DNA from: a virus
Lineage: Duplodnaviria > Caudoviricetes
Direction: 5' to 3' (one strand)
Virus record (IMG/VR): IMGVR_UViG_3300020050_006168
Location: 17,976-81,975 of that record
DNA: 64,000 bases
How positions within the stretch are numbered: the first letter of the stretch is position 1; every line of letters begins with the position of its first letter. The translations under genes and the position numbers were made by a program. The notes beneath the pieces were generated by a model, which saw only the letters and a program-made list of their open reading frames with translations, was not told the DNA's origin and searched no databases. Below, piece by piece: positions 58,735 through 60,227 of this stretch.

Positions 58735-58980
58735 GTGGCATTAATATTGTTATTTTTTATTATAGGTTCTGTATTCTTATTCTTTGCAACCAAGCATAAA
58801 CCATTACACGGCCCTGGTACTATATTACAAAGATACGACGAGTTTGATGATCCTTACTATGAACCTATTGTAATAAAGAAAGTAAATGATAAATACTATA
58901 AATTTTCGTATTTACATTCCACAACAACCCATGTGCTTAGTTGTGATTGGATTGATAGAAATTATAGGAAAATTGATTGA
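58735..58980 (+). CDS. membrane-anchored hypothetical protein
   Basis: aggag RBS; N-terminal TM. Confidence 0.6.
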   Translation: MALILLFFIIGSVFLFFATKHKPLHGPGTILQRYDEFDDPYYEPIVIKKVNDKYYKFSYLHSTTTHVLSCDWIDRNYRKID

Positions 58981-60227
58981 AGATTTGTAAAGTCTGTAAA
59001 ATTGAGAAACCTTTCAGTGAGTACATCTATCGAAAAGATAGCGATTCTTATCGAAATGAATGTAAATGTTGTAAAAAAGAAATAGATCGACTTTATAAAT
59101 TAAAACATAAAGATAAACTTCAGTCTAAATTTAAAGACAAATATCATAAAAATAGAGAAATGTATTTAGAAAAAGCTAAAGAGTTCTATAAACATAATAA
59201 AGATCATATAAAAACTAGATCATTAACTTATTATAAAAATAATAAAGAAATAATTTCACAAAAACGCAAACAATATCAAAAAACTAGATTACAAACTGAT
59301 AATATATTTAAAGTTACTAGAAATTTAAGAAACCGATTATGGTACGCATTAAAGAATAAGACTTGGGATAAATCCTCTGGATTTTCAGATTACATAGGAT
59401 TGTCTGATTATTCTGAATTAAAATTATTTATCGAGAATCAATTCACTAATGAGATGAATTGGGAAAACTATGGTAAGATTTGGGATATAGATCACGTTAT
59501 ACCACTTAGTCTTGCTAGGACAGAAAAAGATCTATATAAACTATGTCACTATACTAATCTACAACCAAAGTTATCAAAAAGTAATAGAACTGAGAAAAGA
59601 AACAGGTTTAATTTTAGCGAGGAATTAAAAGTAACTTTAATAGATTACAACCAAGGTCAAGAATTTTTAATTAAAAACCACTACCTACACAGAAAAGCAC
59701 CAAGTGAATATACATTCGGTTTATTTCAAAATAATGGAACGTTAGTTGGTGTATGTACATTTCACACTCCGTTTAGTCCAGGATTAAAACGTATGATTTG
59801 TGGTCCTCAATATAAAGATTTTGTTATTGAATTAAATCGCCTGTCGGTTATTGATATTTTACCAAAGAACACCGAAAGTTGGTTTATTAGTCAATGCATT
59901 AATTCTGGTGAAATTAAAAAATCAATTATTGTCACTTTTGCCGATACGGAGAAACAACATTCAGGCACAATATATCAGGCTACTAATTTTATCTATACAG
60001 GACTAACTGATTCTAAGAAAGAATTTAGCCTAAAAAATTCAAATAAACACTCAACATCACTAGCTTTGAAATATTCGGTAAAAGAATTAAAAGAAAAGTT
60101 TAAAGAAGAATTTACTTACGTCAGCAGGTCCAGAAAACATAGATACGTTAAATTTATAGGTAATAAGCGTCAAGTAAAAGAACTGCAAAAACAATTTAAA
60201 TTACCAATATTATCATACCCAAAATAA
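58977..60227 (+). CDS. HNH endonuclease fused to Mom-family (GNAT) DNA-modification domain
   Basis: N-terminal CKVC..CKCC; MNWENYG..WDIDHVIPL..HYTNLQP (HNH); then NHYLHR, IELNRL, KNTESWFIS, VTFAD, HSGTIYQATNFIYTG, KHRY (Mom). Confidence 0.85.
   Translation: MKICKVCKIEKPFSEYIYRKDSDSYRNECKCCKKEIDRLYKLKHKDKLQSKFKDKYHKNREMYLEKAKEFYKHNKDHIKTRSLTYYKNNKEIISQKRKQYQKTRLQTDNIFKVTRNLRNRLWYALKNKTWDKSSGFSDYIGLSDYSELKLFIENQFTNEMNWENYGKIWDIDHVIPLSLARTEKDLYKLCHYTNLQPKLSKSNRTEKRNRFNFSEELKVTLIDYNQGQEFLIKNHYLHRKAPSEYTFGLFQNNGTLVGVCTFHTPFSPGLKRMICGPQYKDFVIELNRLSVIDILPKNTESWFISQCINSGEIKKSIIVTFADTEKQHSGTIYQATNFIYTGLTDSKKEFSLKNSNKHSTSLALKYSVKELKEKFKEEFTYVSRSRKHRYVKFIGNKRQVKELQKQFKLPILSYPK

What the first reader, a model, noticed from the sequence alone, without database searches (positions are those of the whole stretch)
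58977..60227. HNH endonuclease fused in frame to a Mom-type DNA-modifying acetyltransferase
Seen: one 416-aa ORF with a zinc-finger/coiled-coil N-terminus and a complete HNH core (WDIDHVIPL...HYTNLQP). With no stop and no in-frame internal start I could find, it continues into a full Mom-like GNAT domain (HYLHR, ELNRL, NTESWFIS, TFAD, HSGTIYQATNF, KHRY). It lies on the opposite strand, between the endolysin and capsid genes. Established: phage Mu Mom hypermodifies adenine to block restriction, and HNH domains of this type are usually free-standing or mobile nucleases. Inference: a single-polypeptide cut-and-protect unit that nicks unmodified host or competitor DNA while modifying its own, or a homing endonuclease carrying a protective cargo. 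I do not know of a characterised example of this fusion.
Basis: partly seen in the sequence, partly recalled or inferred. Interest (0 to 1): 0.82.

Follow-up and report, generated by a model that had tools for sequence, protein, structure and literature searches.

The report
Phage HNH nuclease fused to Mom
An uncultured 82-kb phage makes one protein that joins a DNA-cutting HNH nuclease to a relative of phage Mu's adenine-marking enzyme Mom; the fusion is real and conserved, but the "cut others, protect yourself" idea was already published for Mom joined to another nuclease type and is untested.

Summary
Window 58977-60227 (+) is one 416-aa frame. Residues 1-212 are a zinc ribbon, six long helices and an HNH core with D172, H173, N194 and N203. 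Residues 213-416 are a full Mom domain (Pfam 117 bits; best solved-structure match Mu Mom, 8bv8).

No in-frame start lies between codons 160 and 273, so Mom can only be made as the fusion. The identical protein is on three separate metagenome assemblies. About 30 fused relatives keep both active sites.

One relative carries the same two families in reverse order, and Mom is also fused to other nucleases. In 8 of 8 related phages the gene lies 33-164 nt from the capsid gene's stop, in either orientation. Three records of one relative hold a free-standing HNH there and no Mom; another relative has neither.

My best reading is a mobile nuclease-plus-modifier cassette: Mom marks the phage's DNA while the HNH cuts unmarked host or rival DNA. 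That coupling is inferred, not shown.

Iyer et al. 2021 predicted the same logic for Mom fused to REase-fold nucleases in jumbo phages. I therefore call this a new variant of a known kind. Earlier agents of this scan reported the same fusion on other genomes.

The parts
58977..60227 (+). Whole HNH-Mom fusion gene, 416 aa. The TTG start overlaps the TGA stop of the upstream ORF (TTGA), with AGGA about 10 nt upstream.
   Evidence: full-length AlphaFold2 model pLDDT 96.9, pTM 0.84
58977..59090 (+). N-terminal zinc ribbon, residues 1-38, with C4, C7, C29 and C32.
   Evidence: The four Cys are at least 90% conserved in 95 family members. Residues 1-38 align to the zinc-ribbon region of Hpy99I: Z 5.5, rmsd 1.7 A, 38 residues.
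59064..59357 (+). Six long helices, residues 30-127, with a repeated K-x-YY-x-x-NKE-like motif. Probably a DNA-recognition module. Copy number varies among relatives.
   Evidence: Secondary structure of the models; length variation in alignment A1
59358..59612 (+). HNH (beta-beta-alpha-metal) nuclease core, residues 128-212. D172 and H173 lie at 59490-59495; N194, N203 and K207 follow.
   Evidence: These residues are invariant in 30 fused members. H173 and N194 are invariant, and D172 and N203 at least 90% conserved, in 95 mostly free-standing members. Strands 169-173 and 195-199 and helix 200-210 appear in the model.
59613..60224 (+). Mom domain (GNAT fold), residues 213-416, with H235, Y236, R288, S301, D323 and Y333.
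   Evidence: Pfam PF25680, 117 bits. Profile match to 8bv8, E 2.6e-26. Foldseek top hit 8bv8, E 2.7e-12. Residue mapping to Mu Mom.
58460..58717 (+). First gene of the same +-strand cassette: 85 aa, hydrophobic, no family match.
   Evidence: no homolog in the related loci
58735..58980 (+). Second gene of the cassette: 81 aa with a hydrophobic N-terminus. Its stop overlaps the fusion gene's start.
58256..58285 (+). Sigma-70-like promoter match (TTGACA, 18 nt, TATTCT, with TG) that could drive the +-strand cassette.
   Evidence: This is a consensus match only; the region has no more such sites than shuffled sequence.
60229..60254 (.). G+C-rich hairpin between the converging fusion and capsid genes. 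It looks like a terminator and is T-rich on both sides.
60278..61531 (-). Major capsid gene, whose 3' end abuts the fusion gene (context).
   Evidence: PHROG 14242 major head protein, E 6.4e-18. Homologs at 50-91% identity flank the fusion gene in all related loci.
57820..58224 (-). M15 endolysin, the other border of the accessory island (context).
   Evidence: Pfam Peptidase_M15_3, E 1.7e-8; PHROG 894

Best explanation
The gene encodes a real two-enzyme protein. The N-terminal part is a zinc ribbon, a helical repeat module and an HNH nuclease with a D-H...N...N active site. It derives from a very large family of free-standing endonucleases in phages and giant viruses. The C-terminal part is a complete Mom-type GNAT. 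By analogy with phage Mu Mom it would transfer glycine from Gly-tRNA(Gly) to N6 of adenine in double-stranded DNA.

The gene behaves as an optional, swappable cassette in a low-G+C island directly behind the capsid gene.

The most likely working is as follows. The Mom domain marks the phage's own DNA, which protects it from host restriction and probably from the attached nuclease. The HNH domain nicks or cuts unmarked DNA of the host or of co-infecting relatives. Such cuts would also favour copying of the cassette into relatives that lack it.

Shown here: the fusion, both intact active sites, recurrence, the fixed position, and patchy presence among relatives.

Inferred: nuclease activity, the chemistry of the mark, protection of marked DNA from this nuclease, and mobility.
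For: 1. Single frame: no start codon at the junction.

2. Independent support for the junction: the identical protein on three assemblies and an identical contig of another run across the junction.

3. Conservation: 30 fused homologs at 30-56% identity keep D172, H173, N194, N203, K207 and H235, Y/W236, R288, S301, D/E323, Y333. These Mom residues correspond to the residues needed for Mu Mom activity.

4. Structure: the full-length model is confident (pLDDT 96.9, pTM 0.84) and its top solved match is Mu Mom, 8bv8.

5. Repeated joining: P0025 has the same two families in reverse order. Mom is also fused to HNH_3+AP2 and to an REase-like domain. On the Mom tree the HNH-Mom forms fall in at least three clades.

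6. Fixed position: in 8 of 8 loci the gene lies 33-164 nt from the stop of a capsid homolog, in either orientation.

7. Patchy presence: three records of a relative with 72% capsid identity carry a free-standing HNH of the same family at that place. One of these records is 91% complete and holds no Mom. Another relative has neither gene.

8. Composition: the cassette is 27.6% G+C against 42% in the capsid gene and 36.9% for the window.

9. Paralogy: the genome has a second, free-standing paralog of the HNH.

10. Literature: the same reading was published for REase-Mom fusions (PMC7824862).
Against: No result here shows nuclease activity, its target, or that the modification blocks it.

Pfam HNH models do not reach E<=1 on this protein. 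Matches of the N-domain model to solved HNH structures are weak.

Mu Mom's essential R151 is E325 here, and Mu's dimer residue W48 is N225. All 169 relatives compared carry neither an Arg at the R151 position nor a Trp at the W48 position, and have His where Mu has R154. The chemistry or assembly may therefore differ from Mu.

The fused form is rare: about 30 clusters among 5.8 billion. All loci seen belong to phages with related capsids, so the shared position could be plain shared ancestry rather than homing.

Mom acts after replication on any double-stranded DNA, so host DNA would also be marked. That weakens a simple self/non-self scheme.
Confidence: 0.45

Rival explanations
1. Selfish homing endonuclease with a passenger. 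The HNH part is a free-standing homing nuclease that targets the capsid-gene flank of relatives lacking it. Mom is carried along as useful anti-restriction cargo that makes the selfish gene worth keeping. The mark and the cut have no biochemical link.
For: The same HNH family sits alone at the same place in three records of a relative, L015-L017. Other homing-type genes (NUMOD3, GIY-YIG) and inserts crowd the capsid gene of relatives. The genome holds two paralogs. The cassette has low G+C. Both orientations occur.
Against: It does not explain why Mom is joined again and again to different nucleases, in both orders, instead of being a neighbouring gene. No cleavage site or co-conversion tract was shown.
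Confidence: 0.3
2. The HNH module mainly serves Mom as a DNA-binding or DNA-nicking helper. It would load or target the modifier on DNA and would not attack foreign DNA.
For: pTM 0.84 suggests a fixed packing of the two domains. Mu's dimer residue W48 is not kept, so the N-domain might replace a partner surface. The zinc ribbon and helical repeats look like a DNA-recognition module.
Against: All nuclease active-site residues are invariant in 30 fused members, which argues for a working nuclease. Thousands of Mom relatives work without such a module.
Confidence: 0.12
3. Packaging helper. The HNH would be a terminase-associated nuclease like HK97 gp74, which happens to lie among head genes.
For: It lies next to the capsid gene. 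HNH proteins next to terminase genes are known (PMC3592412 abstract).
Against: It belongs to a different and much larger family. It is optional among close relatives. It sits next to the capsid gene rather than terminase or cos. It is on the opposite strand in a low-G+C island.
Confidence: 0.03
4. Artefact. Two genes were joined by a sequencing or assembly error.
For: None was found.
Against: See: identical protein on three assemblies, about 30 fused homologs, and no start codon for a separate Mom.
Confidence: 0.01

Closest known systems
Mom-endonuclease fusions of jumbo phages (Iyer, Anantharaman, Krishnan, Burroughs, Aravind 2021, Viruses 13:63, PMC7824862)
   Same: A Mom domain and an endoDNase lie in one polypeptide in a phage. 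The published reading is that the mark protects phage DNA while the nuclease attacks host or superinfecting DNA.
   Different: The partner there is an REase-fold (PD-(D/E)XK-type) nuclease in jumbo phages. Here it is a zinc-ribbon HNH nuclease in an 82-kb phage, at a fixed place behind the capsid gene, and both domain orders occur among relatives. Neither version has been tested at the bench.
Phage Mu Mom (PDB 8bv8; Silva et al. 2026, PMC13219725; Karambelkar et al. 2020, PMC7261163)
   Same: Both have the GNAT fold with an inserted helical hairpin. The residues equivalent to H58, Y59, R111, S124, D149 and Y159 are kept. Identity is 28% over 210 residues.
   Different: Mu Mom is a free-standing dimer of about 231-241 aa under Com control. 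This domain lacks Mu's essential R151 (E325 here) and its dimer residue W48 (N225 here), has His for R154, and carries a 212-residue nuclease in front.
Free-standing HNH homing endonucleases of phages and giant viruses (the N-domain's own family; PHROG 2340, 1035 and 2255)
   Same: The full-length N-half matches about 200-250-aa stand-alone proteins, with the same zinc ribbon, helices and D-H...N...N core. A free-standing paralog lies elsewhere in this genome.
   Different: Here there is no stop after the nuclease; the frame runs on into Mom. No member of this exact family was found to be characterised. Pfam does not cover it above threshold.
Single-chain restriction-modification enzymes (Type IIG/IIC such as MmeI or BcgI; from general knowledge)
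   Same: One polypeptide carries both a nuclease and a DNA-modifying domain.
   Different: Those enzymes use SAM-dependent methylation and a shared target-recognition domain, and they are host defence systems. Here the mark would be a tRNA-derived glycyl or carbamoylmethyl group, the gene is in a phage, and no shared recognition domain was shown.
ShiLan insertion: an HNH gene inside a phage DNA methylase gene (Arsenault et al. 2025, PMC11855218)
   Same: A mobile HNH nuclease is physically joined to a phage DNA-modification gene.
   Different: There the HNH is read in another frame inside the methylase gene. Here the two are translated as one in-frame protein.

Membership tests
Mom family (Pfam PF25680) | Profile match above the curated cut-off over the whole domain | tested here: met
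   117 bits against 27.1; profile positions 2-202 of 202. PHROG 1384, E 3.9e-49.
Mom family (Pfam PF25680) | GNAT fold closest to solved Mu Mom, with the inserted helical hairpin | tested here: met
   Foldseek top hit 8bv8, E 2.7e-12, TM 0.71 on the target. Helices 359-365 and 368-374 lie where Mu has its insertion.
Mom family (Pfam PF25680) | Residues needed for Mu Mom activity and conserved in the family (H58, Y59, R111, S124, D149, Y159 in 241-aa numbering) | tested here: met
   These are H235, Y236, R288, S301, D323 and Y333. They are invariant or D/E in 170 aligned domains.
Mom family (Pfam PF25680) | Mu-specific essential R151 and dimer residue W48 | tested here: not met
   These are E325 and N225 here. 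None of the 169 relatives compared has Arg at the R151 position or Trp at the W48 position; 169 of the 170 aligned domains (all but Mu) have His at Mu R154. They are features of Mu Mom, not of the family, but they leave the exact chemistry and assembly open.
Mom family (Pfam PF25680) | Gly-tRNA(Gly)-dependent formation of N6-carbamoylmethyl-adenine in DNA | not testable with these tools
   This needs LC-MS of DNA or an in vitro assay.
HNH / beta-beta-alpha-metal nucleases | Catalytic His on a beta hairpin followed by a helix carrying the metal ligand (D-H...N...N) | tested here: met
   D172, H173, N194 and N203 are invariant in 30 fused members. H173 and N194 are invariant, and D172 and N203 at least 90% conserved, in 95 mostly free-standing members. 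Strands 169-173 and 195-199 and helix 200-210 appear in the model.
HNH / beta-beta-alpha-metal nucleases | Match to curated HNH profiles or to solved HNH structures | tested here: inconclusive
   No Pfam HNH hit at E<=1 for this protein. Relatives give PF01844 E 0.001 and HNH_4 E 0.098. PHROG endonuclease families match at E 8.6e-8 to 3.9e-4. Foldseek gives E about 1 to the autotaxin nuclease-like domain and a Cas9 HNH. VIA matched only the zinc ribbon, to Hpy99I.
HNH / beta-beta-alpha-metal nucleases | DNA cleavage | not testable with these tools
   This needs a bench assay.
Free-standing homing endonuclease genes | Patchy presence at one fixed site among related genomes | tested here: met
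   The fusion is present in 8 loci behind the capsid gene. Three records of one relative hold an HNH alone there. One relative has neither.
Free-standing homing endonuclease genes | Cuts the allele that lacks it and is copied in by repair | not testable with these tools
   No closely related pair of genomes with and without the gene was found to look for co-conversion tracts.
Mom-nuclease 'restriction-modification-like' fusions (Iyer et al. 2021) | Mom and an endoDNase in one polypeptide | tested here: met
Mom-nuclease 'restriction-modification-like' fusions (Iyer et al. 2021) | The nuclease partner has the REase fold | tested here: not met
   The partner here is an HNH nuclease. Hence this is a variant, not a member, of the described set.
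Mom-nuclease 'restriction-modification-like' fusions (Iyer et al. 2021) | The nuclease is blocked by the Mom mark | not testable with these tools
   This has never been tested for any such fusion, as far as the papers I could read show.

The most novel reading that the evidence does not exclude
A single-chain, phage-borne restriction-modification-like enzyme. Its protective mark is a tRNA-derived glycyl or carbamoylmethyl group on adenine rather than a methyl group. Its HNH nuclease is blocked by that mark. The gene spreads among related phages by cutting the capsid-gene flank of genomes that lack it.
Probability: 0.25. Interest if true: 0.75.

Novelty: new variant of a known kind. Interest (0 to 1): 0.55.

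Why it matters
The mechanism of Mom was solved only recently: glycine from charged tRNA is placed on adenine in DNA (Silva et al. 2026).

A natural protein that ties this chemistry to a nuclease would give a direct test of an open question: can a bulky, non-methyl adenine mark serve as the 'self' tag of a restriction-modification-like unit?

It would also show how selfish nucleases and useful anti-restriction genes travel together in phages.

A compact nuclease whose cutting is switched off by an unusual mark could also be of use as an enzyme tool.

The repeated joining of Mom to unrelated nucleases, in both orders, is the strongest hint that the link is functional. The idea is already in print for another nuclease type, and this scan has met the same fusion in several other genomes. 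This copy therefore adds breadth, not a new principle.

Tried and rejected
- Homodimer prediction of the full protein: no verdict (score 0.00). Nothing follows from it.
- tRNA search: ARAGORN found no tRNA in the window. Rfam at E<=1 on 58200-60400 gave only a chance snoRNA hit.
- Isolated phages: among 50,697 phage records none carries the fusion over 80% or more of its length. Only the two halves occur separately. The same holds for the Mom+HNH_3+AP2 form.
- RNA runs: no RNA holder was listed, so expression could not be examined.
- Contigs of other runs cover the gene only in pieces.
- Structure search for the N-domain: no match with E<=0.001 by Foldseek. VIA matches other than the zinc ribbon are generic long helices.
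- NCBIfam gave nothing for the N-domain.
- Inserts in relatives' capsid genes: no Rfam intron family was found.
- Two papers could not be fetched: Iyer et al. 2009, asked for as PMC2995806, and a DOI (10.1093/nar/gkt573) that I guessed for Iyer et al. 2013. I cannot say whether they already mention HNH-Mom.
- I first took the phage for marine. The runs that hold it are activated sludge, wastewater, digester and freshwater, so I dropped that.

Full report
**What is there**

Window 58977-60227 (+) is a single 416-aa frame that starts with TTG. The start overlaps the TGA stop of an upstream 81-aa ORF (TTGA). An AGGA motif lies about 10 nt before it. The homologs also begin three residues before the first Cys, which supports this start.

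The gene is the last of three genes on the + strand (58460-60227). They are set between the M15 endolysin (57820-58224, -) and the major capsid gene (60278-61531, -). The cassette has 27.6% G+C. The capsid gene has 42% and the window 36.9%. A G+C-rich hairpin at 60229-60254 separates the converging fusion and capsid genes.

The genome is a complete 81,975-bp phage record with direct terminal repeats. The public runs that hold it are activated sludge, wastewater, digester and freshwater samples.

**The two halves**

Residues 217-416 match Pfam Mom over the whole profile, at 117 bits against a cut-off of 27.1. A profile of the fused family finds solved Mu Mom (8bv8) at E 2.6e-26.

The full-length AlphaFold2 model is very confident (pLDDT 96.9, pTM 0.84). 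Its best solved match is 8bv8, followed by ordinary GNATs.

The residues whose mutation impairs Mu Mom are all kept. H48, Y49, R101, S114, D139 and Y149 in the numbering of PMC7261163 equal H58 to Y159 in PMC13219725. Here they are H235, Y236, R288, S301, D323 and Y333.

There are differences from Mu. Its essential R151 is E325 here, and its dimer residue W48 is N225. Where Mu has R154, 169 of the 170 aligned Mom domains (all but Mu itself) have His. The domain therefore belongs to a large Mom subfamily that is not identical to Mu's. Its donor and product are inferred, not known.

Residues 1-212 consist of three parts:
- a four-Cys zinc ribbon;
- six long helices;
- a beta-beta-alpha core carrying D172, H173, N194 and N203.

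Pfam does not call HNH at E<=1, but three PHROG endonuclease families match. A search of 1.84 billion cluster representatives finds 29,339 relatives at E<=1e-3. Most are free-standing proteins of about 200-250 aa. The N-half is thus a whole copy of a common stand-alone nuclease. Viral structure matches include proteins labelled intron-encoded or HNH endonucleases of giant viruses. Matches to solved HNH structures are weak.

**Is the fusion real?**

The only in-frame start codons are at codons 1, 62, 142, 160, 273 and 364. A separate Mom with its H235-Y236 motif therefore cannot be started.

The identical protein sits on three JGI assemblies. A contig of another run crosses the junction without a difference.

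Two searches of 5.8 billion protein clusters give about 30 fused relatives at 30-56% identity. All come from metagenomes. All keep both sets of active-site residues. Among 50,697 isolated phage records none has the fusion.

**Recurrence**

- One relative, P0025, carries the same two families in the opposite order, Mom then HNH.
- Other Mom proteins are fused to HNH_3+AP2, or to a DUF7487 plus REase-like region.
- On a tree of Mom domains the HNH-Mom forms fall into at least three clades separated by stand-alone Moms.
- On the HNH tree, well-supported branches force at least four changes of state.

These are FastTree trees of the best hits only, so the counts are rough. A single origin is nevertheless unlikely.

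**Position**

In all eight loci examined, including the reverse-order one, the gene lies 33-164 nt from the stop of a capsid homolog of 50-91% identity. In some it converges on the capsid gene; in others it runs the same way.

Three records of a relative with 72% capsid identity carry a free-standing 226-aa HNH of the same family at that place. One of these records is 91% complete and holds no Mom. The same search does find Mom in this genome. A relative with 74% capsid identity has neither gene.

This genome also holds a free-standing 201-aa paralog in its early region.

All these phages share capsid and scaffold genes. Shared ancestry could therefore explain part of the pattern.

**How it most likely works**

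Shown: one polypeptide, two intact catalytic centres kept by selection, repeated joining of Mom to nucleases, and an optional cassette at a fixed site.

Inferred:
- Mom marks adenines of the phage's DNA, as in Mu. There the mark is made from Gly-tRNA(Gly) and blocks restriction (PMC13219725).
- The HNH cuts unmarked DNA of the host or of co-infecting relatives.
- The mark spares the phage's own DNA.
- Such cuts help the cassette to spread.

I put this at 0.45. The main rival, at 0.30, is a selfish homing nuclease that merely carries Mom as useful cargo. A helper role of the HNH for Mom gets 0.12, a packaging role 0.03, and an artefact 0.01.

**Comparison with what is known**

Iyer et al. [quoted passage not shown] They predicted the nuclease to be the restriction component, with the mark protecting phage DNA.

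The logic is therefore published. The HNH partner, the two domain orders and the capsid-flank site are not mentioned in the papers I could read. The recent Mom papers do not mention fusions at all. No such fusion has been tested.

Earlier agents of this scan reported the same HNH-Mom fusion behind the capsid gene in several other genomes and reached the same reading. I saw these notes only after forming mine.

**Verdict**

This is a new variant of a known kind. Interest is 0.55.

Noticed in passing
L007:4453-5887, L008:3592-5887, L009:7274-9391, L012:3446-5842, L021:3773-5899: In several relatives the capsid gene is split near codon 55-63 by an insert of about 0.2-1.2 kb. Some inserts carry a NUMOD3 or GIY-YIG/NUMOD-like ORF. 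The 0.2-kb insert of L007 is G+C-rich and has no ORF. No Rfam intron family matched. The window's own capsid gene is uninterrupted.
   Followed up: partly
L023:1267-1872 (G000:C1 about 17269-17874, just left of the window): A free-standing 201-aa paralog of the HNH half lies among early genes. It has the same zinc ribbon and D-H...N...N core.
   Followed up: partly
window 58460-58980: Two small hydrophobic ORFs (85 and 81 aa) precede the fusion gene in the same cassette. They match no family and have no homolog in the related loci. The second is translationally coupled to the fusion gene.
   Followed up: partly
L009:4607-7227 and protein P0012: In L009 a 465-aa DUF7487 gene overlaps the start of the HNH-Mom gene by 4 nt. 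P0012 (666 aa, one 2.6-kb contig) joins a DUF7487/REase-like region directly to a Mom domain that is nearly identical to that of L009. This looks like domain swapping at one locus, or possibly a chimeric contig.
   Followed up: no
window 58256-58441: A sigma-70-like promoter match at 58256-58285 is followed by a leader of about 170 nt before the first cassette gene. Another first-stage note calls 58291-58441 a structured RNA.
   Followed up: no
L007, L009 (islands between capsid gene and endolysin): The island that holds the fusion gene differs in content between relatives. It can carry metallophosphatase, DNA methylase and small unknown genes on the opposite strand. It appears to be a hot spot for accessory genes.
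   Followed up: no
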